A DNA stretch of 64,000 nt from Flaccisagitta enflata (Eukaryota). The notes beneath the pieces were generated by a model that had not been told where the DNA came from, searched no databases, and saw only the letters and a list, made by a program, of their open reading frames with translations. Shown here piece after piece: positions 12,460 to 47,651 of the stretch. The DNA lies in the NCBI GenBank assembly GCA_965153355.1, contig OZ231126.1, positions 29,140,001-29,204,000 of the forward strand. The letters run 5' to 3'. Made by a program: the position numbers and the translations under genes. Each line of letters starts with the position of its first letter. The first letter of the stretch is position 1.

Positions 12460-15336
12460 TCACGGGGTTAAATTTCTTTCTCTTTCCTCGCTCTCTCTTT
12501 GGAGGGCCGCCAAAAACATCAAAGTCCCGTTATCATGAGCAATCATGGCATTAAAGAAACGCTTTTTTGCTTTCGTGTACAATAATTCGATAGAATCAAA
12601 GCCATAAACTTCCCGTATCTGACGGATACTTTGCCATTGACAAGAACCAAATATACGGCGTATAGCAGTGTTCAGTGCCACATTCATTTGATTCATTTCT
12701 GACGCGCTGGGCTCTTTTACAGGAGCACCAAAAGTAAGTTTAGGTACGCAATTCGAGTATAGTAGTTGCATGAGTACATTTTCCCTTGGTTTTTGAACGC
12801 TTGACAAAATAGAGTTTATGCTACCAAAGAAACCGCGTAAATCTTCATTAAATGAAAATTTTAGTTTATCGTGTGACAATAAATAAAATCCAAAGTACTT
12901 ACAGGATTTAACATAATCAACACTTATTCCATTGACAGTTATCTTCGCCAATGTATCAATAACACGACTAAGCTTACCAAAAACCATCACTTTTGTTTTG
13001 GCCACATTAAATTTGAGGCAAAAACGCGCACAATAGGATGCGCAAACATCAATTAGTTGCTGAAATGCTTCTCGTGTTGGGGCGATGAGCGACATATCGT
13101 CTGCAAAGAGAAGACAAGCTATGAACAAATCTATCATATGACAGCCGACACCCATACTTTTCAAAAGAACAATGAGATCATTGATATAGACCGCAAAAAA
13201 GTCGGGTGACAATATGCCACCCTGCTTCGTGCCACACAGAACCCGGAATGAATTTGATCGTGCATTAGACCATTTAACATCGTATGACATGTGCAGATAC
13301 CAAAACATTATTAGTAACAAAAAGCAAAGCGGAACCTTTCGATCCATTAACTTAAGAAACAGTCCGCTGTGAGATATAGTGTCAAATGCTTTCGAGTAAT
13401 CCAAAAAAGCAACATATACATTGGAACCCCTCTCTGTGAAATAGTCAACACATGACTTAAGGGTGAAAACTGCATGATTGACACTGTGCTTTGGCTTAAA
13501 GCCAAATTGCAAATCCTGACTGGACAAATAGCGTCCAAATTTCAACCGCAACGCATTTTCGAACATATGTGCAAAGACGCTACTCAAAGTGACACCCCTG
13601 TAATTATCTGTGGCGTTTAGATCCCCAGAACTATCCTTTACTACGGGTGAAATTGTCCCCTTTAAGAAATCGACGGGGACAAAAGAATGTTGCAAGAAGG
13701 AGTTGAATAAAAGATGCAAGTGAATGGCTAATTTGGGACTACCGTGTAAAATGTGCTCAGCAGTGAAGTAAGAATTTGTACTTTTCCCTTCTTTCAACTT
13801 GCCTGAAATTGAGATCATGTCGTCCCATGAAATGAAGAAGGAAGAAATTGAGTCGTTCCACGCATTACTGAAATAGTCGGGAAACCTGTTGGCGAATTCG
13901 CGTTGAAGTTCTTTGTGCGCATCTGTGTCGTTTTTGCCGTAGATGCCCTGAAAATAGGATTGAAACAAACTGGCAATATCGGGTTCTTCAACTGCATCAC
14001 CAATACGACTAACTGGAGGACTCTTAGATTGGGACATTTTCTTCCAATCCCTCCAAAAGCGAATAAAATTCTTGTTCATCAAGTTATCCCCTAAGGCTTC
14101 ACTCTTTTCAGCGGCCATCTGTCGACGACGCCTACGGAGCTCAGCCTTAAATATGTAGTGACAGGATTTTTTGTGCTCAAAGGAGGGACCAGAGGATGGG
14201 CGTCCGTCCGTTTTCCAAGCATCATATGCATTAACTGATTCCCGTTTAAGCTGAGACAAGTTTTCAGTCCAAAAATCTTTTCCCCTTGTACCATGGGGGG
14301 ATTTTCTAGGCAGTAACGAATCTGCTACTTCTAAGACTGATAATAATGAATGATAATATGCATTAATTTGAAAAACATGCTGTTCACAAAAACACCACTT
14401 ATCTCCGTGAACAATGTCAGTCGGTACAACCAGAGAATCTAACATTTCTCCCATCGTATCACTGTACTTAACCAGATCCTCGCGCGGTATTGAAGACCAA
14501 GCAACTCTTTTGTTACCATTTTGAGGCTCGGCGTAACCACCATTACCAGTTACCATTGGAACTACATCTAATTTAAGTGTTACAGGAACGTGATCGGAGG
14601 GGTTCCGTCCATCGTATTGTATCTCGCATTGATCCACTTGATCCCGCAGCGCACTGCTGATAAAAATATAGTCTAGGAGTGAGTAGGTTTCACTTTTTGT
14701 ACAACAACGAGTGAACGAAGTATCATGATTAAAGGACGGGTCGAGTTCGTGGGTACAGATTAGATCATAATTGTGCATGAATTCGAGAATTGTGTTAGAC
14801 ATTTGCTGCCTACTATCGTAAATGTCATAATTCCAATCACCAGTGATAATAAACTTAACCGTCGGATTATTGATTAAAATATTTTCAACCGTACCAAGCA
14901 CTTCCAAATATTGAACTCTGTGCTCATCATTATTTTGTCTAAAAGGAAAATAGACATTAATAATCATTATCGTATAATCAACATCCAAAAGCTTCATCAC
15001 AGAAATTCTCTCATTTTCATATTCTAGAACCGGTTGTAAAAAAGATGTAAATTGTTTGTTAAAAATGAAGCCAGTACCTCCATAAGGTCTGCCCGAAAGA
15101 ATTGCATTATTATGTACATGTTTCATGGCTGAAACTCCATAACCATCAAAATGCTCATGTACTGTACGTAATTGATTGACTGACTTCAGTCTTTTGTACG
15201 CTGGTCTCAGCCAATGCTCTTGAATGCATAAAATAGAATTAAAATCATCTTCACACATCATTTTTATAAAACTCTCACTACTATTGAATCCATTTATATT
15301 GTGAGAGACTAGATTAATTCTAACCTTATCATCCAT
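12460..15336 (-). CDS. LINE ORF2: APE endonuclease + reverse transcriptase (958 aa from the ATG at 15336)
   Basis: APE motifs SHNING, CIQEHW, TGDWN, LLDYIF, SDHVPV; RT motifs NYRGVTL, QFGFK, FLDYSKAFD, GTKQGGILSP, LFADD; no stops or frameshifts. Confidence 0.95.
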   Translation of the reverse strand: MDDKVRINLVSHNINGFNSSESFIKMMCEDDFNSILCIQEHWLRPAYKRLKSVNQLRTVHEHFDGYGVSAMKHVHNNAILSGRPYGGTGFIFNKQFTSFLQPVLEYENERISVMKLLDVDYTIMIINVYFPFRQNNDEHRVQYLEVLGTVENILINNPTVKFIITGDWNYDIYDSRQQMSNTILEFMHNYDLICTHELDPSFNHDTSFTRCCTKSETYSLLDYIFISSALRDQVDQCEIQYDGRNPSDHVPVTLKLDVVPMVTGNGGYAEPQNGNKRVAWSSIPREDLVKYSDTMGEMLDSLVVPTDIVHGDKWCFCEQHVFQINAYYHSLLSVLEVADSLLPRKSPHGTRGKDFWTENLSQLKRESVNAYDAWKTDGRPSSGPSFEHKKSCHYIFKAELRRRRRQMAAEKSEALGDNLMNKNFIRFWRDWKKMSQSKSPPVSRIGDAVEEPDIASLFQSYFQGIYGKNDTDAHKELQREFANRFPDYFSNAWNDSISSFFISWDDMISISGKLKEGKSTNSYFTAEHILHGSPKLAIHLHLLFNSFLQHSFVPVDFLKGTISPVVKDSSGDLNATDNYRGVTLSSVFAHMFENALRLKFGRYLSSQDLQFGFKPKHSVNHAVFTLKSCVDYFTERGSNVYVAFLDYSKAFDTISHSGLFLKLMDRKVPLCFLLLIMFWYLHMSYDVKWSNARSNSFRVLCGTKQGGILSPDFFAVYINDLIVLLKSMGVGCHMIDLFIACLLFADDMSLIAPTREAFQQLIDVCASYCARFCLKFNVAKTKVMVFGKLSRVIDTLAKITVNGISVDYVKSCKYFGFYLLSHDKLKFSFNEDLRGFFGSINSILSSVQKPRENVLMQLLYSNCVPKLTFGAPVKEPSASEMNQMNVALNTAIRRIFGSCQWQSIRQIREVYGFDSIELLYTKAKKRFFNAMIAHDNGTLMFLAALQRESEERERNLTP

Positions 15337-16471
15337 TACTGATGGGATCGGAAGCGGTGGATCCACCAATGGCTTGAAGACGTTCGTCATTCTTTGGTCG
15401 GAAGAAAGAGCCACAGAGAACTCCTTGTGGCCAAAAATCGCGTTCTTCTATGATCTCGAGGTCGTCACGTTTGACGCGAACCCGAAACGACTTGAAACGG
15501 TTGTGTTTGGTTTCCAGCTGCTCCAGCTCGATGACGGAGACTTTCTGGCCCTCGAGAAACGCACGGACATCATCCATTGAAACGTCGTTATGAACACGTC
15601 CTATATATTTGTTTATCGTTAAGTCAGCGCCTTTCATGGACATCAGGCCTTGATTGACTTTTTTACCGATTATAATTCGCGATTGGGAAGGGGGACGAGA
15701 GCGTTGGGAGGAAGCATCTCGACGAAAACTTCCACCTCCCCCTCTTCCACCTCCTCCTCTACCACCCCTCCGTCCTCTGCCGCCACCTCTTCCTCCACTC
15801 ACAACACCTCCACTTCCACTGCCGTTCGCCGCGTGTCCTTCCGTCCTCGAATTTACCGAGTCATTCGAGGCAGCAACTACTGTATTGAAAGAAGGCGCTG
15901 ACGGGGTAATGGGAGCCGAGGAGATCGACGGTAGATTCATCGCCGATGGTTCTATGGGGAGGGGTGCAGGAGCAAATGGCGGGGGTGGAGGTCGACCTGA
16001 AGATGTCGTCGACGTAGACACTATTTCCGATTTCAAAACATTTATAGACGATTCTAACATTTCCGTGGTAACCATAGATTTTTTGATATCCGTAATAGCC
16101 GCCATCAATTGCCCAATAGTTGGGTTGCCGGAAGCACAGGTTGGGACATTGCTCAGATTGAGAGACGCGAATTTGGGAATAAAAAGACCCTGAGAGTCTC
16201 GACGTGTAAGAATTGAGCATATATCTTCGAGGTTATTTTGTCGTTTGTTTTCATTACGGCGACCTGGACATGGTTCGTTTGTCGCGTCGCATAGCTTTTT
16301 CTTTTCGCCAAAAACAAACTCGTTGTTGGAATAAAAATTGAGACATGTCGCTACAACGTCTTTAACTGGCGTGCTATGTATCTTGTTTGAAATGTAATAC
16401 AGTAGATCCGACGCAATCACTTTGTCGGCAACGGCGATATATGATAGCGTGTTGTCCATTTTGACGTTCAA
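15329..16471 (-). CDS. LINE ORF1 (nucleic-acid-binding; RGG-rich linker, C-terminal RRM-like domain)
   Basis: 380-codon ORF directly upstream of ORF2. KYIGRV...DDVRAFL...FKSFRVRV...FWPQGV is typical of CR1-group ORF1 C-termini. Confidence 0.85.
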   Translation of the reverse strand: MNVKMDNTLSYIAVADKVIASDLLYYISNKIHSTPVKDVVATCLNFYSNNEFVFGEKKKLCDATNEPCPGRRNENKRQNNLEDICSILTRRDSQGLFIPKFASLNLSNVPTCASGNPTIGQLMAAITDIKKSMVTTEMLESSINVLKSEIVSTSTTSSGRPPPPPFAPAPLPIEPSAMNLPSISSAPITPSAPSFNTVVAASNDSVNSRTEGHAANGSGSGGVVSGGRGGGRGRRGGRGGGGRGGGGSFRRDASSQRSRPPSQSRIIIGKKVNQGLMSMKGADLTINKYIGRVHNDVSMDDVRAFLEGQKVSVIELEQLETKHNRFKSFRVRVKRDDLEIIEERDFWPQGVLCGSFFRPKNDERLQAIGGSTASDPISNG

Positions 16472-16753
16472 TTTTTTAACAATGTTATTTTACTTTCATA
16501 TTTACGGTCGGTCGTTTTCTTTCATATTGTAAGTTTGAGTTTGATGTTCACCAGTAAGTTCATCAAAATTCACTTTCGATATATAACAAACAAAACCCCG
16601 CGCAGATGACACATCCAGTAGCCTGATTGAGCTTGTTTTTGCCACTTTAAACAAGTGAAGTAGTAGAAATTAGCTTAGATTAATCAATCAATGCAATAAG
16701 TAATCATCAATGGACAAGTTAAATAATTTAGATGGGAGCATCAAGGACCCATG

Positions 16754-18697
16754 TCAGTGATGCTTGACAAAGTCTGCAATGGACGGTTGCCTACGGGGGA
16801 CATTTTTTAGAAGGGCCGATTCGAGTTTGTTGATGCTGAAGAAATCAAAGTCCGAGGTGAATGAACGTGACTCAAAATATCGCCTCACTTCCTGCAAATA
16901 CTTTTTAGCTTCACTGAGGGAGCAAATGTTGGGCTCCTCCTCCGCAGGATCATCTTCCTCCACTTCCGCGTCTTCGTCGACATCAGACTGAACCAATTCT
17001 GCCAAAATGTCTGCTTCTGTCAGTTCCTCAGATGACAGAAGATTGTCATCAATGCTGATATAATCATCAAAAGTGAGATTATCGGGCAGTTGAAGACGTT
17101 CCCGCAAAATCGACAAAGGAATCGTGTCTTCCTCCTCTTCCTCTTCCTCCCTTTGATCATCACTGCCATCATTGTCTTTCTTCCACCCGGCCTTTCGGAA
17201 ACAGTTTTTCACCGTGTCGGGTTTGACATCTTCCCATGCGGCGGAGATCATTTGTATCGCGTCAAGCACAGTTGGCTGAAAATTGCTCGAAGTGTGCAAA
17301 GCATCAATGTGGGCCAACATTCTGCGGATAAGTCGCGTCCGGTATTTGTGCTTGAGATCGCGGATGATACCAGCGTCACAAGGTTGAGTGTGTGAGGTGG
17401 TGTTTTTAGGAAGAAAGTGAACGTCGAGATTTGTCAGTTTCACCGGAACTGGATTGGGGTGACTCGGACAATTGTCAACGAGAAGAAGACAGCGACGTTT
17501 CTCCTTGCGAAATTTGCTATCCAATGCCTTCAACCAGCCGACAAAAATTTCGCTCGTCATCCAAGCGCGCCTATTGTTTTTGTAGTCCACTGGAAGAGTT
17601 TTGACATTTTTGAAACACCTCGGTTTCTTGGCTTTGCCTATCACGAGAAGTTTGAGTTTTTCGGTTCCTGTCATGTTTGCGCCAACCAAAACTGACAGTC
17701 TTTCCTTTGACTGTTTCCCGCCGGTACAACGCTCGCCGCGAAAATGAAGTCTTGTTTGGTTGCATTTTGTAGAAGAGGCCAGTTTCGTCGGCATTATACA
17801 CGTCAGATGGATCGTAACCCGCAAGAAGCGATGGCAGCACATTTGTCGTCCATTCATTGACAACGTTAAGGTCCACATCGCCTCCCTCCCCTGACACGGC
17901 CTGAGACAATAACAAGGCCTTGCTTTGTTATTTGAACCACTGACGGAGGCGCAGGTAGATCGAAAAGTGGGATGAAAGATTGATGGGAAAAAGACAGACA
18001 GACTGAAAGATTGACAGACTGAAAGAAAGGCAAACTGGAAGAAAGACAGACTGATAGAAAGATAGACTAAAAGAAAGGCTGACTGAAAGAGAGAGAGACT
18101 GAAAGAAAGAGAGACTGGAAGAAAGACAGACTGGAAGAAAGACAGACTGGAAGAAAGACAGACTGGAAGAAAGACAGACTGGAAGAAAGACAGACTGGAA
18201 GAAAGAAAAAATATAAACCGGGACAGGACGAAAGAATGGAATAAAGATTTTCAGACTTATAAATTGAAGGAAAAGTGTTTTTTTTTTTTTCTTGCCTTGA
18301 AGTCGAGGTTTTCACGCTTTGTAAAACGATAAAGCCATCCTCCAGATGCAGAAAAGTCGTTGATTCCCATTTTTTCGGCGAATTCGAGTGCTTTTTCTTG
18401 CACCATCGGTCCGTTTAAACTTATCTTTTGATTTCTAACAACGTGAATCCATTGGACAAGTCTTTGTTCAAGTTCATGAAATGGAGAGAGCGAAACTTTT
18501 TGTCGTTTTGTATCACGGTTATTTTCGAATTCCGCGCGAAGCTTCTTTTCATCTCGTAAAAAGTTTTGCAACGTGCTGGGTGCAATGCCATGCTGCTTAC
18601 AAAGTTCTGGACGGGATTTTCCTTGTTTGACAAGATCGATCAACTCAATCTTCTTTGCGATAGAAAAGCGAACTTGAGTTGTTTTTGGCGAGTTCAT
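16754..18697 (-). pseudogene. Tigger/pogo transposase (CENP-B-type HTH + DDE_1), two exons, one frameshift near 17745
   Basis: Exon 1 (18697-18296): FSIAKKIELI..., GPMVQEKA, FSASGGWLYRF. Exon 2 (17900-16754): VSGEG, YNADETG, SKERLSV, LLVDNC, QPCDAGII. The frame switches after QPNKT. Confidence 0.88.
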
Positions 18698-21600
18698 GAT
18701 GATAAGACGAGATCTTGTGTGATTTGAGATTTTAGGAAATTGTGGGTGCCATGGATCATCATACGATTTTATACCCACTCGTAGGAAAGGTCATGAGTAT
18801 GGAATCATTCATCCCTTAATCCCTCGATACTGTGGCCATTGTTGCCTCAAGTCCATATGGCCATGCAGGATCACCTGTGCCTGGATCGATTTCACCAACG
18901 TCTTCCCTGCCTTTGTCTTTTCTTCATTCATTCACCAATATCAGCTTCTCGAGTGCAGTGACGGTGATTCCGCCGCTCGATCCTCATCCATTCATTCATT
19001 TTTTGTCACAAGCACGCAACTCAATGGTTTGCCGTATCAGTCGGTTCGGCTGTCGCGTTGGTGAAGCTCTCACATCATCAGCCACTGGGTAAACAAGCTT
19101 GATTCGATCCTCTTCTTCTTCTTCTTCTTCTTCTTCTTCTTCTTCTTCTTCTTCTTCTTCTTCTTCTTCTTCTTCTTCTTCTTCTTCTTCTTCTTGATCA
19201 TCTTCTTCATTTTCGTTTTTTCATCCTTTTTTCCCTTTTTTTAGTCGCTTCTCAACCCCAAAAATGCCTTCTAAGCGAGGCTGAAATGCTACAGAAATCA
19301 TCATTTTCATGCGCTATTGCGAATTTTGCCTTATAGGCGGGTGCGCTATTGGCGGGTTTTTCCAACAAAGAATTAAAAGAGAAAAAGTTGGGACTTTGAA
19401 AATCATGCCTAGAAGCGAGGGATGCCTTATTAGCGGGTGTGCTCTAGTGAAATTAAACTGTAGTCGCAAAAGCGTTAGATGGTCAGCGGTACCCGTGCCC
19501 TGCCTGAGTAGGTTGTGGTTGAAGTTGAGGGGGGAGCAGGGCAGCGGTCGATGACCTATGCTTTCACACATATGGGGGATTTTCTCCTTCTTCTCCTCCT
19601 TCTGCGATTTGGGCCTCAAGGCCGGCATCTGGGCCTCTTGGCTGAGATTTTGACATTGAGGCTGAGATTTGGGCTTCAAGACTGTAATCTGGGCCTCCAA
19701 GCTAGGATTTAAGCCTTGAGGCTAGGATTTGGGCCTTGAGGCTGAGATTTGGGCCTGGAGGCTGGGATTTGAGGGGGGGGGGACGTAGGAGAAGAAGAAG
19801 GAGAAGAAGGAGAAAATCCCCCATATGTGTGAAAGCATAGGTCATCGACCCCTTCGGGGCCGCTGCCCAAAAACGGAACAACTTGTTTCGCTAATTTTTC
19901 CCAAACAGAAGGCCTAAACTAAAGAAAACTCATGACCATTCAAAAGCTCTGCAAGAGATCTTTCAAATGCGACGTTGCTGGTCATTCTAGCTTTTTTCGT
20001 TTAGAAATAGCATAAGAATGAGTAAAAACATTACTCCATTGAATATTGGGTTAAATTGAATGAAACGGTTTTGTGAAAAACATTTTAACTTTGACAAGCT
20101 CTAGCTCCTAAACCGTTTGAGATACAGTTCTGGGGTTGGTCTAGATTTAAAGAAAATTCGAAAATCTTTAAAATCACCTAAGAAAAAAAGCTTATATAAG
20201 TTTTTTATTGGGCTTTCTCACAAATCAACGAAGAGCTGCAGCTTTTTCCACTTCAACTTTTACACTTGTGACCACCTCTTCACTATTCTTGTGCCATTTC
20301 TAAACAAATAAAGCGGGGACAACCAGCAAGGTCTCATTCAAAAGATTTTTCACAGAGCTTTCAAACGGTCATGGATTTTCCTACGTTATTTTCATTGGAT
20401 GAATACAAATCAATGAAAAGCATTTTTTTTTCAACCGTTATCTATCTATCTGTGCGTACATCGGTTTGTACATCCATCCATCCATCCACTCATCCCTTAA
20501 GCCCACATTCTTGGCCTTGAGGCCTGGATTTTTGTAATCAGGCCCAACTTTTGGCGTTTCGTTTTGTCCTGGATTTCAAAATTAGAGGGCTGAGACTAGG
20601 ACGCACTTGGCTAGAAAACATGACTGTACTTTGATGGACGAAAAACATTTTGTTTGTGAGACTCACAAACAATAGGGGGGGTCATACAGGGTTGTTTTTG
20701 GAAATTCCTTATGAGACTCCGGAATCTGGGGGTTTATTGAATGTAGAAAAGGATAGAAAAAAAATTGGGTATCCATCTCTTAAGGAAAAATAATCCATTT
20801 TCGATCAAAAATGAGGTATCAGATAGGCGAAAATCGCAAAAATCGCGAAAATCGCGAAAATCGCCAAGATTTAGGCCATTGGTTATAGCCACAAGGGCAC
20901 TAAAAAACATTTGTTTTTGACTTAGATGATGTATTTTCGCTTTACTCTTACCACTCATGTCAATAATTAGGCTTCCAATGCAAGATTTTTCTCATTTTTA
21001 GGGCTCTATACATGCTGCCGTAAAGGGAAAAACTAGCGAAAATAAAAAAAAATGAGAAAATCCTAAGAAAAAGAAAAAAATTGTACTGTCTAGTGTGAGT
21101 CAAAAAATGTGCCTGCTTATTTTAAAGATGCTTGTCTGAATTAGTATTTTCTATTCTCACAATATTTTCCCTTTTTATGTTAAAAAAAAAAACCCTTTTT
21201 TTTACTATGAAATATTTGCCAAAAAGGCAAAAATAAGCGAAATAAAAAAAATTTCAAAATTCAATGCTCAAGCTTCTCCCTCCAGAACTTGCAACCTGGC
21301 ATGGGAGGTTTTCTTTTTGGTTTTTAAGATTTTTTTTAAATTTTTTTTTGTTTTTGTTTTGTTTTTTTGTTTAATCAAAGTTAGCACCTACACAAACATG
21401 GGTAGGGCTTAACAGTCAAACGAAAAACTAGTTTGATGGAATGGCTGATTTTTAACCACTAAAGCAATTTCATCAAAAGCAGTAAAAATGCAAAACTCAA
21501 TGATTTTTTCAATGAATCATAGTATTGTACCATACAATGCACAATAAGGTGATGAGTTCAAACTGTAAAATGTTTGATACAGCAACTGATTTTTAACCAC

Positions 21601-24121: not shown

Positions 24122-24595
24122 TTTTTAGTCGCGTGCTACGCGACTCTACACCCCGCTTTGTCGGTCCGTCGGTCGGTCCGTCGGTTGGTCGGTCGGTTGG
24201 TCGGTCCCCTTTTTACTTTTTTGTCCGTTAAGACATTTTTTAAGTCATTGTAGGGTGTGTTAAGTAATCTAAAGTCATTGTAAGTCATGCCTAGTCATTC
24301 TAAGTCATTCTTAATCATTTTAAGTCATTTTAAGTCATTTTAAGTCATTTGGTCATTTAGTCATTTTAAGTCCTTTTTGGTCATTTTAAGTCATTCTAAG
24401 CCATTCTAAGTCATTTTAAGCCATTCTAAGTCATTCTAAGTCATTTTAAGTCTGTAAGTCTCGCACGCGACTTATAGGTGTTGGCCTTGTTCATAAAACA
24501 TTCAAATGTTCTTATCTTAGCAAATGATGGGTGGCCTCAAATATGGCCCCTGCCCACCCGCACGCGACTTGGGTAGCCGTGTATCCGGCCTTGTT
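24122..24595 (+). mobile_element. DINE-1/HINE-like non-autonomous element, family B, with internal 10-bp TAAGTCATTT repeats
   Basis: 5' palindrome AGTCGCGTGCTACGCGACT, (GTCG/GTCC)n tract, 3' CACGCGACT and GCCGTGTATCCGGCCTTGTT end, T-rich insertion site. Related copies at ~24860, 40729-40880, 41035-41281, 42167-42375(-), 42409-42668(-), 48667-48839(-), 50475-50685, 57638-57849(-) and 60686-60894. Confidence 0.75.
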
Positions 24596-25116
24596 CAGTT
24601 TTTACTACTAAAATTTCATTGGAAATCTATTGAAAAAGTTCCAATTAAACTTCCCATCACCATCTTTTTCTGTTCATGAAGCTAAAAAATGGTAGAAGTC
24701 GCCAGGTTAGAAGTTAGAACTGCTGACCACGGAGAACATTTCTAATTGGGGATAGAAGTTGAAAGAGCGTAGTATGTCCGTCAGACTGTTCACTATCGGT
24801 AGCTAGATCGGTCTCGAACAGGATAGCTCTTGCACCAAAAACGCACCAATTCTACGGCAATTTTTAGTCGTGTGCTACGCAACTCTACACCCCACCTCTC
24901 GGTCCGTCGGTCCGTCGGTCCATCGGTCTGTCGGTCCTTCATTCCGCCCGTCCGTCCGTTGGTCCATACGTCCGTCACACTATACTTTCTTGTTTTTTTT
25001 TTTTTTTTGGCTCTGCTCCTGCAAAGGTAAGTCAGAGTGACCTCAATGGCCCACCTGCCCACCCACTGACAGGTAGCCAAGTGTGAAAATACTGACCACT
25101 TCTCTCTCTCTCTCTC

Positions 25117-25212
<96 letters not shown>

Positions 25213-25251
25213 CCTCTCTCTCTCTCTCTATCTCTCTCTGTGCCCTCTCAC

Positions 25252-25477
25252 CTCTGATTATGCTCGGCCATGATCCTCCTCATCTTGGAGGCGTTTTCCG
25301 CCACAACGGCGACGACGGCGTTGGAAGTTCCGATGAGGAAGTCTCTGACTAAGAAGGGCCCCGTCTCGATGGTCGCGGGATCGCCCAACGATGGGTCACC
25401 CACGAAATCCGGAGCGTACTCGAAGGATACCGAGTTGATAGGACCCAAAGAGGCCTCAAAAGGAGATGGGCCTTTAG
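25252..25477 (-). CDS. CFAP251: CFAP251/WDR66 internal exon (6th of 6 seen)
   Basis: CAG acceptor, AG|GTGAGA donor, phase 1 to 2. LGPINSVSF...ATIETGPFLVRDFLIGTSNAVV matches WDR66 LGAIRTLSF...FVLRNFIIGTSDA. Confidence 0.88.
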
Positions 25478-25693
25478 CTGAAATAACAAATCCATGGTGG
25501 TGGTGGTGGTGGTTGAATGAATGAATGATTGATTGAATGAATGAATGAATGGATGCAGGCATGTATGCGTGTGTCCTGGATGTCGAAAATGGCTCTCAAA
25601 GTCAAAGAAAAGGGGAATGGTGGTGTATCACTCAGTATGATGAACAAGAGTTTCTTATCAATTAAACAAACACAGCCACACAACAGACACACA

Positions 25694-25806
<113 letters not shown>

Positions 25807-25893
25807 ACAAACGCACAAACAAGCAAACTGCAATCAAACAAACAATCACACAAAAACAAACAAACACAAGCATAACTATATAATATTTTATAC

Positions 25894-26132
25894 CTATTCG
25901 TCCTCCTTTGCCCCCTTTGGTAGGACAGTAGATGAGTTTGATGTCCATATCGAAGAACTTGACTTGTCCTCCGCTGTCCCCAGTGACGAGATAATTATCG
26001 ACGCTCGTCAACACGGTAAATCCGCGTTCTTGGATTTTGACCAATTTTAAAGCTTTTTTCTGGTCTGATGTCACGTGACCACGAAGATTGTCCCAAACCA
26101 CCAAATTGCCCAAAGATGTCGCCGTCAGAGCC
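25894..26132 (-). CDS. CFAP251: CFAP251/WDR66 internal exon (5th)
   Basis: CAG acceptor, G|GTATAA donor, phase 2 to 1. ALTATSLGNLVVWD...KLVKIQERGFTVLTSVDNYLVTGDSGGQVKFFD. Confidence 0.9.
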
Positions 26133-26206
26133 CTGCAGGCGTGCAAGTGTGTGCGTGTGTATTTGTGTTTGTGTGTGTGTGTGTGTGCGTGAGTGTGTAT
26201 AGTGTT

Positions 26207-26245
<39 letters not shown>

Positions 26246-26272
26246 CTGTGTGTGTGTGTGTGGTGTGTGTGT

Positions 26273-26372
<100 letters not shown>

Positions 26373-27198
26373 TTATGAATGTTTGTGCGTGTGTGTTTGC
26401 GTGTATGATAGAGTGTGTTTGATTGTGTTTTGAGTGTAAGGAAAGAAAGTGGAAACACGTATAAAAGACAGATAGAAAGAAAGAAGAAGCCAATTGAAAG
26501 AGAAAGTCGTCTTTTTTATCGTACATCGGAAAGAGATTAGAGCGAAATGTGGGTGTGATAAGACGACAAGATACATCGAGGAGGCAGACGGGAAGGCGGG
26601 AGGCAGACGGGAAGGCGGTGGAGGAGGAGGAGAGGGGAGGAGAAGAAGAAGAGGAAGAAAAAGAAGAAGAAAAAGGAAAAGAAAAAAAAAGGAAAAAGAA
26701 AAAGAAAAAGAAAAAGAAAAAGAAAAAGAAAAGAAAAAAGACAAGACACAGGAACTGAAGACAGGAGCAAGACAAATGAGACAAAAGCAAAGACAAAGAC
26801 AAAGACAAAGACAAAGATAAAGGCCAAGGCCAAGGCAAAGGCAAAGGCAAAAGCAAAGGCAAAGGCAAAAGAAAAGAAAAGAAAGAAAGAAGAAAAAGAA
26901 AGAAGAAAATCGGAAAAATAAGAAGAAAATAAGAAGAAGAAGAAGAAAGAGAAAGAGAGGAATGAACGAGAAAAAAGAAGAAAAAAGAAGTGAACAAAAA
27001 GACATTCTTGATAACTTTAGATGCGCCCTCACATCTCTATAAGGAAAGTCTGTCGTAAATCCGTCCGTCAGTCGGTCGGTCCATCGGTCCGTCCGTCCGT
27101 CCATCGCCTCCTTGAAAATCACAGTACTTGGCACTTTTCAGCCGCGAGGATATCATGTATCAAGTCATTAGGATAATTTGAGAGCCTCTTTCAATACC

Positions 27199-28248
27199 AT
27201 ATTATCTATCGTAGGTTCGAATCCCACCAGGACTCAACTTTTTCAGAAGTTGAGTAAAAGTGAAGGATAGTACGCTCATTCTGGTGACCACAGGGCAAGA
27301 GCTCTGATAAGCTCAAGCGGTAGAGCAGTTGCCCCGGATTGGCGGTATCCATCGTGGGTTGATCCCACCAGGTTCCAACACACCTGCCAGAAGTTGAGTA
27401 AAAGGGGTGGGATTATGCGCTCATTCTGGTGACCACAGGGCAAGAGCCCTGATAGCTCAGACGGAAGAGCAGACACCCCGGTTGCTTGTTATCTATAGGT
27501 AGATTAAGATCCCACCCAGGACTCAGCACAAGTTGAGTAAAAGAGATAAGGATTATGCATCATTCTGGTGACCACAGGGCAAGAGCCCTGATAACAGCTC
27601 AGGCAGTGGGAGCAGTTGCCCTAGTTTGGCATTATCTATAGTAGGTTCGAATCCCACAGGACTCAACTTTTTCAGAAGTTGAGTAAAAGAATGGGATTAT
27701 GCGCTCATTCTGGTGACCACGGGGCCAGAGCCCTGATAGCTCAGGCGGTAGAGCAGTTGCCCGGATTGGCATTATCTATCGTGAAGTTCTGATCCCACCA
27801 GGACTCCAACTTTTTGAAGTTGAGTAAGAAGATGGGATTGTACGCTCATTCTGGTGACCACAGGGCAAGGCCCTGATAGCTCAGACGGTAGAGCAGTTGC
27901 CCGGATTGGCATTATCTATAATGGGTTCGAATCCCACCAGGACTCAACTTTTCAGAAGTTGAGTAAAAGTGGGATTATTAAACATTCTGGTGACCACAGG
28001 GCCAGAGCCCTGATAAGCTCAGAGCGGTAGGCAGTTGCCCCAGTTTGGCTATCTCGTGGAGTTGAATCCCACAGGACTCAGCACCAGAGATGAGTAAAAA
28101 GGTGGGATTGTACGCTCATTCTGGTGACCACAGGGCAAACCTAGTAGCTCCCAGCGGTAGAGCAGTTGCCCAGATTGGCATTATCTATCGTGGTTAAGAT
28201 CCACCAAGGACTCAACTTTTTCAGAAGTTGAGGTAAAGATGGGGTTAT
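27199..28248 (+). repeat. Tandem array (~7.5 x ~140 bp) of tRNA-like units
   Basis: Units start near 27299, 27444, 27583, 27728, 27869, 28005 and 28139, plus a 5' partial unit. Consensus has A-box TAGCTCAG(G)CGGTAGAGC, B-box GGTTCGAATCCC, then ACTCAACTTTTTCAGAAGTTGAGT. Confidence 0.9.
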
Positions 28249-28252
28249 AACT

Positions 28253-30356
28253 CTAAATACGAATGTGATAGTATGGATCCGTTTTCTTATTCCCAGGCTT
28301 GGGAGCGTCTTTTGCGATAGGATCTGCTACAGAGGAAAGCTTTTTCTGAAGGAGCCTTTGGAGGGTGGAGATGCTACATCGCAATTCGGCGCCAAATCTG
28401 AAATTTAGGGCCTCACAGCGAGCGCAGTTTGATCGGCAGCCTGCCGCCTTTGCGCGATTCTGAAAGAAAGCCTCTTTCTTCTTAAGCTGTCGCTCAGCAG
28501 GCCCATAACTACTCCTTTTCAAAAGCAGCTGCCAGTTCCCGACTCGTTTATTATGCTGACCACCTCATTGTCATAGCCATTGCTGCTTGAGTATACGTCT
28601 CTCCTTTTGGATGTTGCATTAGATCCTCTCGTCTAAGACAGCGAGCCGCTTCAGCTCGTTGGCCTTGTACGGTGGCTGTGAAGAAGTCTTTGGAAGCCTT
28701 GATGCTAAATTCTTCACCCCACCCAATGGAGCGTTTGAGGTCAGTGAAGAGGCTTCTTGTAGCAATGACTCGGCGATGTGGTGTCCATACGCAGGATCAA
28801 AGGCTGGATTCGACGGGGGAGGCGGGTTTTGCACATGCTGCGGACCTTAGGCAGACTCGGTTTGCTGACGAGGCGCTACACCAGCTTTAACAGATGCTCC
28901 TGTACCGCCAACTAGTTCGCAAGCTACCGCTGCTTTTGATGGCCGCGAGTGAAAGGAAGACGCTCCCGTCTGCTGACCAGAGACGAGAGTTTAACAGCGG
29001 GCCTTGGCTTGCGCAGGTAGAACCTAAAACAGTTTGCTGCCTTATGCTTCTTCCCAGCTCTCTTGGTCTTCTTCCCCTTTGCTGCCGCTGCCCAGGCGCC
29101 TGATTCAGCTTCTGGGTTGCTGCCAACGTTGCCGTCGGCGAACCACTTGAAGCTTCTCCTTGGCCTTTGGGCGTTACTGCTGCAGGGGGCGCGCTGGAGG
29201 CGCCAGAGGGCCTTTGCTTTTGGAATCCAGCCCTTTTTGTTGACTCGGCACATTGCGCGTTTGTAGAGTCTTTCCCCGCCATGATCTCTTCGACTGTTGT
29301 GAGGGAGTGACGTCACGAGGACCCTGTTGCTACTGATTTGGGGGATGAACCAATCCAGGGCGCGATTGCCGACTTCCTGATGCTGTGGAGTGAGTTGCAG
29401 CTGATGCAGCTGCAACTGCGTTGAGCACCATTACAGCTGGTGGAGGTGCGGAAGCGTCGTCGGAAGTTATTGCAGATGAAGTTGCAGTTGCATCAGGAGG
29501 CTTCGGGGCCGCATTCTTCCTCTTCGTCGCCTGGACCATGCGACGAACCTCCTCCTCATACTCCCTCCTTCTTTTGTTGCTTTGGATTTTGCGCTCCAGA
29601 GTCTCCGAGCCAAGCTCTGTTTGATTAGCCGATGAGCGCATGAGAGTTTGTTTGTTGCAGCATACTGAAAGTTTTTCAAACTCTTTGAAGAGGAGAGATA
29701 CTCCGACGTCCGGACTGATGATACGATACCAATTTTTGCATCCCAGGATTGGTGCTTCTCTTCCGGCGTCGCAGTGTCCACTTCCGGGTCAATGTCTTTC
29801 TCCACCACCTCCCCATTCACCAACACCTCCTCCTCTGTTTCCATCCCCTCCTCCTCCACTCTTGCTCCATCATTGACCGATCTCTCTCTCTCTTTGCCCC
29901 CGCTGCGTTGACATGCAGCTGCAGACGCTTGATCACGAGACGCTGGGCGGCCGAAATCACGCCAGAATTGGCGAGGCGATGAGGCAAATCCGATGATGAT
30001 AGCGCTTGCGCGAAGTGATGAATCGATCCGTCGGCGGCGGTTGATAGAATCATATGAACCTCCATCTATGACCACCAATGGAGGAAGCGAAGCGGGATCA
30101 ACGGCGTTGGATGGCTGTTGACGATTTACCAGCGCATCATCTTGTTGACGCTTTTTATTCGCCATTTTTGCGTCCTGACGGAGCGAAGGTCGCCATTGAA
30201 GGCTGCGTACGCGACAGCCTCCTCCTCCGCCCCGAGCGGCGTCGTGGATGCAGGTCCTTCTCGATTAGAGCCGTCGATGAAGAGCTGATGGAGATCCAGG
30301 GATCCGTACGGCGACGAAACGTCGGCTAAAGCCTCGGGGCGCTGCTGCCAGGACAT
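28253..30356 (-). pseudogene. Additional coding-like region of unknown function downstream of integrase
   Basis: GC-richer chain of overlapping ORFs (30126-30356, 29467-30165, 29330-29641, 28924-29415, 28619-28834, 28253-28522) after an AT-rich spacer; ATG at 30356. Confidence 0.5.
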
Positions 30357-30619
30357 CTTGACTCCGACGAGCGACTTCGAGATGCGAACTGCTTAGTGGA
30401 TAGAATGACATCGTCAGCGGAAGCTTTGAAATGATCGTTGAGAACTGATAATGGTAAGATCGAGATTTGGCACAATATTATGTACATATAGACAGAGCGA
30501 ATGAATCAGTGTTTTGATGTGTAAATTGAAATGGACAACATAATTGACAAGAGGAAAGATGAAAGCATGGATAATCAGAACCAGATATGAATAATAACAA
30601 CTCTGTAAATATAACAAGT

Positions 30620-33600
30620 CAGAGTCTCAATCTCTCATATCTATAGTTACTAATAGACAGGCCCATGCGCCTTTTTCTCTCTCTCTTGAAACTTAGCGTT
30701 GTTTTATGAATCCAATTCCAGCCGCTCAAGCTTTGTGCGGTCTTAACACGATCTTTCCATCTTGGCACTGGATGTGAGCCCTCCGGACATGGGCTGTCGA
30801 ACACTCGACGCCCATAACCCGTCCTAGACTCCAGGTGCGACGAGGCAGAGTGTCGTTTATGACGACGACCATGTCATCAACCGCAAAGTCTCTCGGATCC
30901 GACCATTTTACCGCTTTGCGCGTGAAGAAGCGACAAATATTCGACCCTCAACGATTTAGCATCCGCCAGCGATTACGCCTTTCCGGTAGACGCCGCGGAG
31001 TCGGCGTCGAGTTGACATGTATTTTCCAGATCCCAGAGGGGCATGGCCGGATGTTGATGGATTTAGGATATGATTTGGTGTAAGGGCCTCAGAGTCATTT
31101 GGGGTCAACTAGCTGGCGCTGTCCAGAGGGCAGCGGTGCCAGAAATTCACCCTTCAACACGACGACAGCAGTGTTGAAGGCGTCGGCGTGGAGGATGGCG
31201 CCCGTCGAGATGGAAGCAGATGGCAAAGGCAGCGATTCTCTCACCTCCATAGTGGGGTGTTTCTCGGCGTCGATGAAATCACGAAGACGCCGCTGGGTCG
31301 GGGAGTACGGCGGTTCCAAGCTTCCATTTCCTTCTTGAGGATATTAGTGGCGCCAACTAGATTCGTTCCACAGTCTGAGTGGCAAAGGCGGTTCTGGGCG
31401 CCAGCACGCGCGGATGGTTGCTGTTGCCATCGCATCAGCTGACATGGACGAAAACAAGTCCACATGAATGAGCGCGTGACACAAAACAGGTGAACACTGC
31501 GATCCACTTGTGATCAGCACGCCCGTACATTTTGACAAGGAAATGCCCCATGACGTCTAATCCAGTCTCTGCAAAGACAGGAGCAGGATTAGCGCGATTT
31601 GATGGAAGATTGGCCATTTGCTGATTTCCGATTTCTTTTTTGAAGTTCTTCTGGCATCACAAAGCACGTGTTGACGACGCTCTTGACAGCCTGAAGACCT
31701 TTTGTAATCCACACAAATTGGCGTAATTGGCACAATGTGTGCTTTGCACCCGCGTGAAAATCATTATGATGATAATGGCGAGTCAGCGATTTCACATTCT
31801 CGTCTTTTGGCGGAAGGATAAAGGGAAAGTGAGCGTCATGAGCGATGTCGGCATTCTCCAATCGGCTGCCGACGCGAAGGATGCCATCGTCGTCGACGAA
31901 AGGGTTCAACTTCAGCATCTCCTTGTTTTTGATGATGAAGTCACGACTGACTTTCTGGCTTAGACTTTCCCAATTCAATTTGTTGAAACGTCAGAATAAT
32001 GTTGCTGCACATTGACTTGACGAGCTTTTTGCGCGCCTCCTCCACGACGTCTTGCGTCACTCCAGTTTGGAAGGAGTCTTTGCTGCTCGTGTCTTACAGC
32101 CCCTTGGATCGCTCTCCACCTTGCAGCTCTCACATTAGGGAACAATAGCAATGATCCGCAATTTTCTGCATCCATTTTCGAGAAGCGGCTACCAGAATAT
32201 CGCGTCATGCCTTATTCTTTTCACTCTCTCCTTTTTGCCTGGAAGCGGCGACCTGTGCCAAGCAAGACACGTCACGATGTTCGTCTTTGGCCATTGATCT
32301 TCAAGGAAGACGCAAAAATACAGGACCGTGATGGAATTGGGCCTTGTTTTCGGCTTCATAGGCCTGGATGCACCTCTGCTACAGTGGTCTCGCGAGGTTG
32401 TTTGGCGAGTCAACCCGGCACTGTTGAGATCAGACCGCTGGATCTGGAGAGGCGATTGGCGAAGGAAATACAGGCACCTCGGTTTGCGGTTATGGAAATC
32501 ATCTTAGTGCATAGTTAGAATCAGATTGCAAAATCCTGTGACCAGATTGCAAAGTTGATGGTCCTTCCGGCGAGCGTTTGACTGCAGCAACTTTTCTGCG
32601 GATACAATCTCGTAGCATTGGGCAGCTGTTTGTGATGGTAATTTTGGATTGAGAGGAATGACGTGAGATTTGGAGGCAATGAATGAAATCTTGAACATCT
32701 CTCCATCTCAGTTGACTTAGCGTGAGTATGCAACCTGCTCATATCCTTATTTTGGAGCTGCATCACAAAATAATAAGTTGACTTGCCAATGTAAGCTATT
32801 ATGTAGCCGCCATTCCTGGCTGTTCAATTCGGTATTGTTGTGAAGGCCAAAAGATGAAGTCGCGGAAGAAGGATTCCTCCGCTCTCTTCCAGGCGAATCA
32901 TCCCACTTCTGTGGGCCGACAGAGTTGAAGATGTCGTCTGCCGATGTATGCGCTTGGGCTCCAAAATCCCAATGGATCATAAAGTTTAGCTTGCATGGAG
33001 ACCAATTGACGAGGTGTTTTTGCCCTAAGAGTTTTGAATCCTTCGTCGCAGATGAAGATGAAGGCGTCTTCCATCGGAAGCCATGGGGCTCCCAACACCT
33101 TCGTCGGTGCATCATCTTGCTTATCTGCGAGATGGGAATTGGCACGTTCGGATCTCCATCCATCAATTGCCGCGCATTACTTTTCCACTTCACAAGATCC
33201 ATCCCGCCTTCAGCCATCGCCGCCACTGCATCCACCTTCAACTGCAGTGCTTAGTCGACCGAATCCCCACCCCCACTTCCGTCGTCGACGACGTAGAAGC
33301 CGAATCGAATAAGATAGTAGACGTTGTGGGGATACTTGGGCTGGATCACTTCAGCATGCTTTCTGACGGTGAAAGACGTGGCCAGTGGCTGGATTGGCTC
33401 TTGAACATGTATTAAGAACAGATTCAAAATGGCTTCTCGTAGAGTACGGTCTTCAGACAAAAAGAATCTGAACAGATCAGCGTCGTCAGGATGGGCCCAG
33501 CGGATCACAAGTGGAAGAACGCCTTTATATCACACACATAAAGGCGATCTTCACTAACCAACAGCAAAGGGATGTCCATCAGCTGTTCATCAGGTTGCGG

Positions 33601-41685: not shown

Positions 41686-41810
41686 CTGGTGCTGTTGGCG
41701 ACGAAAAGTGACTGTGAGAATTTGCCGACTGGTTTGTTAAAGTCGTTGTCTGTCAATTTTGGCGCCGTGAATGTGATGCCAGCCGAAGAATTCCATTCGT
41801 AGAAAATGAC
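41686..41810 (-). CDS. CFAP251: CFAP251/WDR66 internal exon (4th)
   Basis: TTTTCAG acceptor, AG|GTCATT donor, phase 0 to 2. VIFYEW...TAPKLTDNDFNKPVGKFSQSLF matches WDR66 [21 protein letters not shown]. Confidence 0.92.
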
Positions 41811-42030
41811 CTGAAAAGAGTTAAATGTATATGAGATCAAATGGATTATTTGAATGTGATGCCAGCCGAAGAATTCCATTCACAGAAAATGACCTGAAAA
41901 GAGTCAAATGTGAATGTGATCAAATGGATCATTTGAATCTGATAAAAGGCAAAGAATTCCATTCATAGAAAATGATCTGAAAATAGTCAAATGAATATGT
42001 GATCAAATGGGTCATTTGAATGTGATGCCA
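41769..42030. repeat. 83-bp tandem repeat spanning the intron/exon boundary of CFAP251 exon 41686-41810
   Basis: Units start at 41769, 41852, 41935 and 42018 (partial). Confidence 0.9.
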
Positions 42031-47027: not shown

Positions 47028-47470
47028 CCATTCATTCATTCATTCATTCACTCATTCATTCATTCATTCATTCATTCATTCATTCATTCATTCATTCATT
47101 CATTCATTCATTCATTCATTCATTCATTCATTCATTCATTCATTCATTCATTCATTCATTCATTCATTCATTCATTTATTCATTCATTCATTCATTCATT
47201 CATTCATTCATTCATTCATTCATTCATTCATTCATTCATTCATTCATTCATTCATTCATTCATTCATTCATTCATTCATTCATTCATTCATTCATTCATT
47301 CATTCATTCATTCATTCATTCATTCATTCATTCATTCATTCATTCATTCATTCATTCATTCATTCATTCATTCATTCATTCATTCATTCAATCATTCATA
47401 CATTCATACATTCATTCATTCATTCATTCATTCATCCATTCATTCAATCATTCATTCATTCATTCATTCA
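47028..47470. repeat. (ATTC)n microsatellite abutting a CFAP251 splice donor
   Basis: Direct reading. Confidence 0.95.
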
Positions 47471-47471
47471 C

Positions 47472-47617: not shown

Positions 47618-47620
47618 CTA

Positions 47621-47651
<31 letters not shown>

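What the first reader, a model, noticed from the sequence alone, without database searches (positions are those of the whole stretch)
27199..28248. Tandem array of self-contained tRNA-like Pol III cassettes abutting the 3' end of a Bel/Pao retroelement
Seen: ~7.5 head-to-tail ~140-bp units. Each has a ~79-nt cloverleaf-like part: GAGCCCTG/CAGGACTC acceptor-like stem, GCTC/GAGC D-stem with A-box, TGCC/GGCA stem whose loop varies (CCGGATT, CTAGTTT, CCAGTTT, CAGATT), an 8-nt variable segment, and a GT(G/A)GG-TTCGAAT-CCCAC T-arm. Most units continue into a T4-5 run inside a 9-bp hairpin (ACTCAACTT..AAGTTGAGT), then a conserved spacer CATTCTGGTGACCACAGGGC. Known: A/B boxes plus a T-run define a type 2 Pol III unit. 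Inference: this is not a normal tRNA gene (non-canonical anticodon arm) and not a normal SINE (no body or tail). It may be a multi-copy small-RNA cassette. It lies antisense to the retroelement, where the 3' LTR would be expected, so it could be element cargo (small-RNA source, TFIIIC insulator, primer or decoy) or an integration target.
Basis: partly seen in the sequence, partly recalled or inferred. Interest (0 to 1): 0.72.

Follow-up and report, generated by a model that had tools for sequence, protein, structure and literature searches.

The report
Decayed tandem array of tRNA-derived repeats
This is a short, decaying tandem array of a 139-base repeat that descends from a tRNA-like sequence, an ordinary kind of repetitive DNA lying in a transposon-rich stretch of an animal genome, not cargo of the neighbouring retroelement.

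Summary
At 27199-28249 there are 7.5 head-to-tail copies of a ~139-bp unit. Each has a tRNA-like part, a T-run inside a hairpin, and a conserved 20-nt spacer motif.

The reading as "self-contained Pol III cassettes" is overstated:
- Only 1 of 7 complete units (27847-27982) keeps A box, B box and T-run together.
- That same unit is the only one to match Rfam tRNA, at 24.6 bits against a threshold of 29.
- Units are 72-87% alike, and base pairs do not covary above shuffles.
- A majority consensus of the units is called a 79-nt tRNA by ARAGORN, so the founder was tRNA-derived.

The link to the retroelement is not supported:
- The last Bel/Pao pol domain lies 2.5 kb away, and no LTR pair exists.
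- The array sits 33 nt from the broken end of a separate, frameshifted copy of a ~710-aa ORF family. Other copies of that family run on through the ORF end and do not enter the array.
- Public DNA runs hold more than 1,000 contigs matching this stretch, some with tandem units at other loci.

Best reading: a small, old array of a tRNA-derived tandem-repeat family. It resembles the amphibian Pol III tandem families, squamate SINE-derived satellites and tandem SINE arrays of bivalves. It is a new member of a known kind and of low interest.

The parts
27199..28249 (+). Tandem array: one partial unit plus 7 complete units of 133-145 bp (period 139)
   Evidence: TRF; unit alignment; nhmmer profile gives 8 hits, E 1.8e-18 to 4.9e-42
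27199..27276 (+). u0, a partial unit that starts in the variable region of the tRNA-like part. It keeps the B box, the hairpin and TTTTT (27239-27243).
27277..27421 (+). u1 (tRNA-like part 27299-27376). B box damaged, no T-run.
27422..27560 (+). u2 (tRNA-like part 27444-27524). A box kept, anticodon-like arm and B box damaged, no T-run.
27561..27705 (+). u3 (tRNA-like part 27583-27664). B box and TTTTT (27668-27672) kept, A box disrupted by insertions.
27706..27846 (+). u4 (tRNA-like part 27728-27806). A box and TTTTT (27811-27815) kept, B box damaged. ARAGORN calls it only at a relaxed threshold.
27847..27982 (+). u5, the best-kept unit. tRNA-like part 27868-27945 with A box, B box and TTTT (27949-27952). 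It is the only Rfam tRNA match (27870-27944, 24.6 bits, gathering score 29).
27983..28116 (+). u6 (tRNA-like part 28005-28079). A box, B box and T-run all lost.
28117..28249 (+). u7 (tRNA-like part 28137-28213). Acceptor-like 5' strand and B box damaged, TTTTT (28217-28221) kept. The array ends about 5 nt before the place where the spacer motif would start.
27930..27976 (+). Example (u5) of the long imperfect hairpin found in every unit. The T-arm 3' strand pairs with a downstream GTGGGATT, enclosing the 9-bp hairpin that holds the T-run.
   Evidence: RNAalifold consensus; 90.7% of cells paired; fold z-score -3.35
27112..27198 (.). Left flank: a different repeat, high-copy in the public runs and unrelated to the unit
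   Evidence: summed word depth about 41,000 (X1) and 34,000 (X6); no match to the unit profile
27060..27102 (+). (TCCG)n microsatellite left of the array, shared with several other places in the window
28250..28281 (.). 32-nt filler between the array and the broken ORF remnant. No match to the unit or to the ORF family.
28282..30356 (-). Frameshifted copy of a ~710-aa ORF family with no Pfam domain, truncated at residue 698 of 710. High-copy in the public runs.
   Evidence: tblastn of P0007 and P0009 on the window; homologues; no Pfam family for P0001, P0005, P0006 or P0007 and only two sub-threshold chance-level rows for P0009; depth and loose ends at 28282
30729..33176 (-). Decayed Bel/Pao pol remnant: DUF5641 (30729-30947), Integrase_H2C2 (31592-31990), weak Peptidase_A17 (32901-33176)

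Best explanation
The array is a small, old member of a tRNA-derived tandem-repeat family.

Origin. The founder unit was a tRNA-like sequence of about 79 nt with internal A and B boxes, followed at once by a T-run terminator and about 55 nt of spacer. It was either a tRNA pseudogene or the head of a tRNA-derived SINE. Whether a retroposed SINE stage existed is not resolved.

Amplification (inferred). The unit was multiplied head to tail at the DNA level, by unequal crossing-over or replication slippage, and not by repeated retroposition. The array begins and ends at arbitrary points inside the unit, and there are no tails or target-site duplications between units. The ~50-nt inverted repeat in every unit may favour slippage.

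Decay (shown). At this locus the copies have since decayed neutrally. They are 72-87% identical with many indels, promoter and terminator are intact together in only one unit, and pair changes are no more compensatory than chance.

Context. The array is not part of the neighbouring retroelement. It lies at a breakpoint between two other unrelated high-copy repeats.

Activity (inferred). At most, unit u5 could still give a short Pol III transcript ending at 27949-27952. No function is needed to explain the array.
For: Shown:
- Array and period. The motif occurs only in the array.
- Units are 72-87% alike.
- The majority consensus of the 8 units is called a 79-nt tRNA by ARAGORN at default settings. 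In the real sequence, ARAGORN calls none at default, u5 with -ps, and u3 (type undetermined), u4 and u5 with -ps80.
- Rfam tRNA matches only u5, at 24.6 bits, below the gathering score of 29.
- A box, B box and T-run occur together in 1 of 7 complete units.
- The cloverleaf is paired in 81.8% of cells, but its covariation is reached by 136 of 500 shuffles. The long hairpin is paired in 90.7% of cells with no change on both sides of any pair.
- Array ends lie at profile positions 67 and about 138 of 142, so not at unit termini.
- The family is multi-copy elsewhere. 1,022 (X1) and 1,425 (X6) contigs of two DNA runs lie on 26500-29500 at 80% identity or more. Summed word depth over the array bins is 8 to 75,490 in X1 and 7,719 to 115,399 in X6.
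- A 172-nt contig in two marine metagenome runs spans 27816-27969, more than one unit, with 6 other letters and 3 gaps.
- No LTR pair.
- The neighbouring ORF copy is truncated at residue 698 of 710. Nine X6 contigs and one X5 contig carry, beyond 28282, a different and mutually consistent sequence (agreement 0.99). By my hand translation it encodes the next residues of P0007.

From the literature:
- tRNA-like Pol III tandem families in amphibians, and SINE-derived satellites (PMC10702118; Background and Discussion read).
- Tandem arrays of 4-15 tRNA-derived SINEs in a bivalve (PMC11481361; passages read).
Against: - No solo copy with a tail or target-site duplication was seen, so the SINE step is unproven.
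- The whole genome was not available. Copy number, array sizes and chromosomal position in the source genome are therefore unknown.
- The tool warns that summed contig depth is not a copy number, and that the runs may come from relatives or from the source itself.
- The many indels between units could partly be assembly errors, which could not be checked.
- Only 32 of about 2,500 laid pieces were listed. A contig joining the array to either flank at another locus may therefore exist unseen.
- The T-arm, the spacer motif and the long hairpin are better kept than the rest of the unit. That could reflect constraint and not only a shorter time since duplication.
- Transcription was not tested.
Confidence: 0.72

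Rival explanations
1. It is a decayed cluster of real tRNA genes. A tandemly amplified tRNA gene with its own terminator and a short spacer has since turned into pseudogenes, with no SINE or satellite stage.
For: The T-run lies directly behind the acceptor-like 3' strand, as in real tRNA genes. The consensus passes ARAGORN at default settings as a 79-nt tRNA. There is no SINE body, tail or target-site duplication.
Against: Even the consensus is non-canonical in the ARAGORN fold. It has an 8-bp acceptor with a C.A mismatch in 7 of 7 units, C at position 33, an anticodon stem of one G-C and three G.U pairs, and a long variable region. The family gives more than 1,000 matching contigs at very high summed depth in two DNA runs, and short arrays at other loci. 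That fits a repeat family better than one gene cluster.
Confidence: 0.13
2. It is a functional multi-copy Pol III cassette. The units are transcribed into tRNA-like small RNAs of about 85 nt, or act as TFIIIC-bound insulator sites.
For: u5 keeps A box, B box and T-run at tRNA-like spacing. The T arm, hairpin and spacer motif are the best-kept parts. Units with the hairpin fold better than shuffles, with z -3.35 and -3.16. Amphibian tRNA-like tandem families are reported to be transcribed in vitro (PMC10702118, Background).
Against: Six of 7 complete units lack at least one of the three elements. There is no covariation above shuffles. The tRNA-like part alone folds no better than shuffles, z 0.12. 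If the RNA ends at the T-run, the hairpin cannot form, because the T-run lies in its loop.
Confidence: 0.07
3. It is part of the neighbouring mobile element: terminal or internal tandem repeats, or cargo, of the Bel/Pao element or of the 710-aa ORF element.
For: It lies within 33 nt of the ORF remnant, on the side where the element's 3' end would be. The ORF and the Bel/Pao pol remnant are collinear on the minus strand, about 370 nt apart.
Against: The ORF copy is cut 12 codons before its stop. Other copies continue with ORF sequence at that point, and not with the array. There is no LTR pair. No unit copy lies at the other end of the element or anywhere else in the window. Two contigs carry about 2 units next to sequence that does not lie on this stretch.
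Confidence: 0.05
4. It is an assembly artefact: a collapsed or mis-joined repeat that does not exist as such.
For: There are many indels between units (11%). Both flanks are repeats, which are prone to misassembly.
Against: Independent public runs hold contigs with the unit, including tandem ones, at up to 99% identity or more.
Confidence: 0.03

Closest known systems
Amphibian tRNA-like Pol III tandem families (PolIII/TAN of Cynops, Rana/polIII, Hy/polIII of Hydromantes, OAX/satellite 1 of Xenopus), as described in PMC10702118 (Background read) and listed in PMC9659126 (table passages)
   Same: They are head-to-tail repeats whose unit contains a tRNA-related segment with Pol III promoter motifs, and no matching dispersed SINE is known. 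That is exactly the situation here.
   Different: Their units are about 200-740 nt, against 139 nt here. They occur in amphibians, whereas here the source is unknown and the runs holding the unit include marine metagenomes. Some were shown to be transcribed in vitro, and nothing is known here. This locus is short and decayed.
SINE-derived satellites (sSats) of squamate reptiles (PMC10702118; abstract, Background and Discussion read)
   Same: They are tandem repeats from tRNA-related SINE sequence. Many loci are short, with a few variable units alongside longer homogeneous ones. The proposed origin is unequal recombination and a 'library' of short duplications.
   Different: sSats have a terminal unit that runs into the parent SINE's end, and the parent SINE is known. 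Here no parent SINE or extended terminal unit was found.
Tandem arrays of tRNA-derived HCD SINEs in bivalves, 4-15 units in Scapharca broughtonii (PMC11481361; passages read)
   Same: They are arrays of similar size (here 7.5 units) of tRNA-headed elements in a marine invertebrate genome, with unequal recombination as the proposed origin.
   Different: Those arrays consist of whole SINEs with target-site duplications, in the forms TSD-(SINE-TSD)n or TSD-(SINE)n-TSD. Here there are no recognisable tails or duplications, and the array ends fall inside the unit.
Canonical eukaryotic tRNA gene (type 2 Pol III unit)
   Same: It shares the A box, the B box, a cloverleaf-like fold in the best unit and in the consensus, and a T-run just downstream.
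   Different: It fails the tRNA models at their thresholds and has a non-canonical anticodon arm and acceptor stem.

Membership tests
Functional tRNA gene | Scores above the threshold of a tRNA model | tested here: not met
   ARAGORN at default finds 0 in the window. Rfam RF00005 gives 24.6 bits against a gathering score of 29 for 1 of 7 units, and no match up to E 10 for the other 6.
Functional tRNA gene | Canonical 7-bp acceptor stem and an anticodon loop with U33 | tested here: not met
   C.A mismatch in 7 of 7 units. The ARAGORN fold of the consensus and of u5 has C at position 33 and three G.U pairs in the anticodon stem.
Type 2 Pol III transcription unit | A box, B box and a downstream run of 4 or more T in one unit | tested here: inconclusive
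   All three are present in 1 of 7 complete units (u5). Each is present singly in 3, 2 and 4 of the 7 complete units, and the partial u0 also keeps the B box and the T-run. The motifs were judged against consensus patterns that I recalled, not against a curated model.
Type 2 Pol III transcription unit | Transcribed by Pol III | not testable with these tools
   No RNA run was available for this stretch.
tRNA-derived SINE | tRNA-derived head | tested here: met
   The consensus is called a tRNA by ARAGORN. u5 gives a sub-threshold Rfam tRNA match.
tRNA-derived SINE | A-rich or simple-repeat tail and target-site duplications | tested here: not met
   Units join directly, spacer to head, with no tail. 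Array ends fall inside the unit.
tRNA-derived SINE | Dispersed single copies | tested here: inconclusive
   There are 0 solo copies in the 64-kb window. Contigs elsewhere show about 2-unit loci. The whole genome is not held.
tRNA-derived SINE | 3' region shared with a partner LINE | tested here: not met
   The unit profile finds nothing on the LINE in this window or anywhere else in it. Only this one LINE could be tested.
Satellite / tandem-repeat family | Head-to-tail units at several loci | tested here: met
   This array. Tandem units on contigs with other flanks, and a 172-nt contig spanning more than one unit.
Satellite / tandem-repeat family | Long homogeneous arrays associated with heterochromatin | not testable with these tools
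   No genome or chromosome map is held. This locus is short and heterogeneous.
Bel/Pao LTR retrotransposon (as a part of it) | Lies inside or at the LTR of an element bounded by two LTRs | tested here: not met
   No direct repeat pair between 28250-30700 and the rest of the window, apart from a 44-nt low-complexity match.
Bel/Pao LTR retrotransposon (as a part of it) | The same junction in other copies of the element | tested here: not met
   Ten contigs (9 in X6, 1 in X5) continue past 28282 with a different, consistent sequence. The ORF family has 12 more residues there.

The most novel reading that the evidence does not exclude
The 139-bp unit may belong to a Pol III-transcribed tRNA-like satellite family of a marine animal lineage. 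This would be an invertebrate counterpart of the amphibian PolIII/TAN families. Its intact copies elsewhere in the genome would make tRNA-like small RNAs of about 85 nt, or bind TFIIIC as chromatin boundaries, and the locus seen here would be a decayed outlier of that family. One hint is that the best unit is closer (about 94% over 154 nt) to a contig from marine metagenome runs than to its own neighbours (72-87%). That would fit a conserved master sequence.
Probability: 0.08. Interest if true: 0.5.

Novelty: new member of a known kind. Interest (0 to 1): 0.2.

Why it matters
The finding matters little by itself. It adds one example, probably from a marine animal, to the short list of tandem-repeat families that descend from tRNA-like Pol III units. 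It also shows how such an array looks once it decays.

If the family proved to be abundant and transcribed in the source genome, it would be useful for two things: studying how Pol III units seed satellites, and masking false tRNA or SINE calls in that genome's annotation. The suggested tie to retroelement biology (primer, decoy or cargo) is not borne out.

Tried and rejected
- **Whole-genome search.** No genome is held for this window.
- **Metagenome and viral contig scans.** The scan with the 20-nt spacer motif gave 3 loci (L001-L003), all chance 20-mers in unrelated contigs. The viral contig scan gave 0.
- **Rfam.** At gathering thresholds there was no match over the whole window. The other sub-threshold rows on the array (snoRNA, DicF and others, E 3-10) are chance-level. 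A hammerhead or other ribozyme satellite was considered. No such family appeared at E up to 10 on the array (27190-28260), or up to 1 on 26500-29000.
- **RNA evidence.** No RNA holder was listed, so expression is untested. The six DNA holders each had a share of 0.05. Parts of the stretch without cover (26601-26903) are microsatellite.
- **Higher-order repeat.** Lag-2 identity of 81.0% against lag-1 of 78.8% is too weak to call.
- **Unit homology in the flanks.** There was none on the + strand of 27000-27200 or 28249-28450 (--watson only). The both-strand profile search also found nothing there. A faint likeness of 27168-27190 to the spacer and head junction, seen by eye, was not confirmed.
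- **Identity of the 710-aa ORF family.** No Pfam family was found for P0001, P0005, P0006 or P0007. P0009 gave two sub-threshold chance-level rows, GGDEF at E 0.027 and Seadorna_VP2 at E 0.037. There was no usable ESM Atlas hit and no viral-contig relative. Whether it is a third ORF of the Bel/Pao element or a separate element stays open.
- **Parent tRNA isotype.** ARAGORN's label Pro(CGG), or Ala(GGC) when an intron is allowed, rests on a non-canonical loop and is not trusted. From memory, the D arm and T arm look like those of several isotypes. I did not test this.
- **Literature word search.** A search for four motifs of the unit returned 0 papers. Repbase and Dfam could not be searched, so 'no known SINE' is not shown.
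- **Earlier findings of this scan.** There were none for this genome or this sequence. The word search returned only unrelated bacterial, phage and Naegleria cases.

Full report
**Observation**

The sequence at 27199-28249 is a head-to-tail array. Tandem Repeats Finder reports period 139, 7.5 copies, 75% matches, 11% indels and score 1042. A second row has period 284. I cut the array at this motif into one partial unit (u0) and seven complete units (u1-u7) of 133-145 nt and aligned them. A profile of the units finds these eight copies and nothing else on either strand of the window.

**How tRNA-like the unit is**

- ARAGORN at default settings finds no tRNA in the window.
- Rfam finds nothing at gathering thresholds. 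In a permissive scan only u5 (27870-27944) matches the tRNA model, at 24.6 bits against a gathering score of 29. The other six complete units give no match even at E up to 10.
- A majority consensus of the eight units, built in a script, is called a 79-nt tRNA by ARAGORN at default settings. With relaxed thresholds ARAGORN also calls u5, u4 and, with type undetermined, u3.
- The founder was therefore clearly tRNA-derived. Even the consensus is irregular, though. It has an 8-bp acceptor with a C.A mismatch that all seven units share, C at position 33, an anticodon stem held by one G-C and three G.U pairs, and a long variable region.
- The nominal label Pro(CGG) should not be trusted.

**State of the units**

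- Pairwise identity among complete units is 72-87%.
- An A-box-like motif is kept in 3 of 7 complete units. The strict B box is kept in 2 of 7, plus the partial unit. A run of four or more T is kept in 4 of 7, plus the partial unit. All three occur together only in u5.
- RNAalifold does not recover the cloverleaf. It gives a long imperfect hairpin in which the 3' strand of the T arm pairs with a downstream GTGGGATT and encloses the 9-bp hairpin that carries the T-run. This hairpin is paired in 90.7% of cells, again without any compensatory change.
- Units folded with the hairpin are more stable than shuffles (z -3.35, -3.16, -1.72). The tRNA-like part of u5 alone folds as a cloverleaf but is no more stable than shuffles (z 0.12).
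- Both folds are therefore inherited from the founder. At this locus nothing shows selection to keep them.

**Surroundings**

The window is a transposon graveyard. It holds an open 995-aa LINE ORF2 (12463-15447, minus strand) and a pogo/Tc5-type transposase (16757-18790, minus strand), dense microsatellites, and a frameshifted Bel/Pao pol remnant on the minus strand. The pol remnant comprises DUF5641 at 30729-30947, Integrase_H2C2 at 31592-31990 and a weak Peptidase_A17 match at 32901-33176.

The last pol domain is 2.48 kb from the array. No LTR pair exists.

The sequence between pol and array is a frameshifted copy of a ~710-aa ORF family that has no Pfam domain. Its relatives are P0001 and P0006-P0009, from ENA and one marine catalogue. 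tblastn maps residues 1-698 of 710 onto 30356-28283. The copy therefore breaks off 12 codons before the stop, 33 nt from the array.

**Public reads**

Six DNA runs hold small parts of the stretch. I laid four of them at 80% identity.

- Two runs of a coded organism gave 1,022 and 1,425 matching contigs.
- Summed word depth over the array bins is 8 to 75,490 in X1 and 7,719 to 115,399 in X6. Over the left flank (27106-27206) it is about 41,000 and 34,000. Over 28621-29428 it is 110,000 to 425,000. The tool warns that these sums are not copy numbers, but they do show that the unit and both flanks are multi-copy repeats.
- A 542-nt contig and a 1,004-nt contig each carry about two tandem units next to sequence that does not lie on this stretch.
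- A 172-nt contig present in two marine metagenome runs spans 27816-27969, more than one unit, with 6 other letters and 3 gaps. Its length is about one period plus an assembler word. My inference is that this is what a collapsed tandem repeat gives.
- At 28282, nine contigs of X6 and one of X5 continue with a different, mutually consistent sequence (agreement 0.99). Translated by hand, it gives the residues that follow position 698 in P0007.
- Other copies of the ORF element thus run on to their stop codon and not into the array.
- None of the 32 listed pieces bridges either array border. About 2,500 further pieces were not shown.

**Interpretation**

The array is a small, old member of a tRNA-derived tandem-repeat family. 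It starts at profile position 67 and ends at about 138 of 142, has no tails or target-site duplications between units, and has unrelated repeats on both sides. This points to DNA-level amplification by unequal crossing-over or slippage, not serial retroposition, followed by neutral decay. These last steps are inferred.

Whether the founder was a SINE or a tRNA pseudogene is open. No solo copies were seen, but only 64 kb of the genome could be searched. The idea that the array is cargo, primer source or LTR substitute of the retroelement is not supported.

**Comparison with what is known**

- tRNA-like tandem families with Pol III motifs are described in amphibians: PolIII/TAN, Rana/polIII, Hy/polIII and Xenopus OAX/satellite 1. 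Vassetzky et al. note that no parent SINE is known for them (PMC10702118, Background; also the table in PMC9659126).
- SINE-derived satellites occur in squamates, with many short, variable loci alongside long homogeneous ones (PMC10702118, Discussion).
- Tandem arrays of 4-15 tRNA-derived SINEs occur in a bivalve (PMC11481361, passages).

The present array fits this known kind. It differs in its short unit, in the lack of a recognisable parent SINE, and in its decayed state.

**Verdict**

The finding is a new member of a known kind and of low interest (0.2). The boldest reading not excluded is that intact copies elsewhere form a transcribed Pol III satellite family. It has about 8% probability.

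Noticed in passing
window 28282-30356 (-): A frameshifted, 3'-truncated copy of a ~710-aa ORF family with no Pfam domain, rich in Ala, Ser, Pro and Gln and with a charged helical C-terminal part. Relatives at 84-91% identity to P0001 exist in ENA assemblies and one marine catalogue, and summed contig depth is very high in two DNA runs. It lies about 370 nt downstream of the Bel/Pao pol remnant on the same strand, so it may be a third ORF of that element or a separate element.
   Followed up: partly
window 12463-15447 (-): An open 995-aa LINE ORF2 with endonuclease (Exo_endo_phos) and reverse transcriptase (RVT_1) domains, apparently intact. A 386-aa open frame lies just upstream (15332-16489, minus strand).
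   Followed up: no
window 16757-18790 (-): A pogo/Tc5-type DNA transposon: DDE_1 transposase (498-aa frame, E 1.8e-48) preceded by HTH_Tnp_Tc5 and CENP-B_N DNA-binding domains.
   Followed up: no
window 24126-24218, 24872-24989, 27053-27114, 40404-40472, 41050-41147: A dispersed motif followed by a (GTCC/GTCG)n microsatellite recurs at five places. It recalls the (GTCY)n repeats tied to the SINE-like HzSINE1 listed in the review PMC9659126. It may be the tail of another short element.
   Followed up: no
window 25072-26990: An extreme density of microsatellites within 2 kb: (CT)n, (AC)n, (GT)129 and (AAGAAA)n back to back.
   Followed up: no
window 41768-41999: Three tandem copies of an 83-bp unit (83-92% alike), next to a long (CATT)n tract at 41324-41676.
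   Followed up: no
window 27289-27306 and the same place in the other units: The end of the spacer and the start of the tRNA-like part form a short palindrome (CAGGGC, four bases, GCCCTG), in about 4-5 of 7 unit junctions. Each unit junction is thus itself a small hairpin. The spacer strand pairs perfectly with the acceptor 5' strand, which the tRNA-like 3' strand does not.
   Followed up: no
window 47463-47843 (-): A weak WD40-repeat match (E 1e-4) in a 127-aa frame, possibly an exon of a host gene.
   Followed up: no
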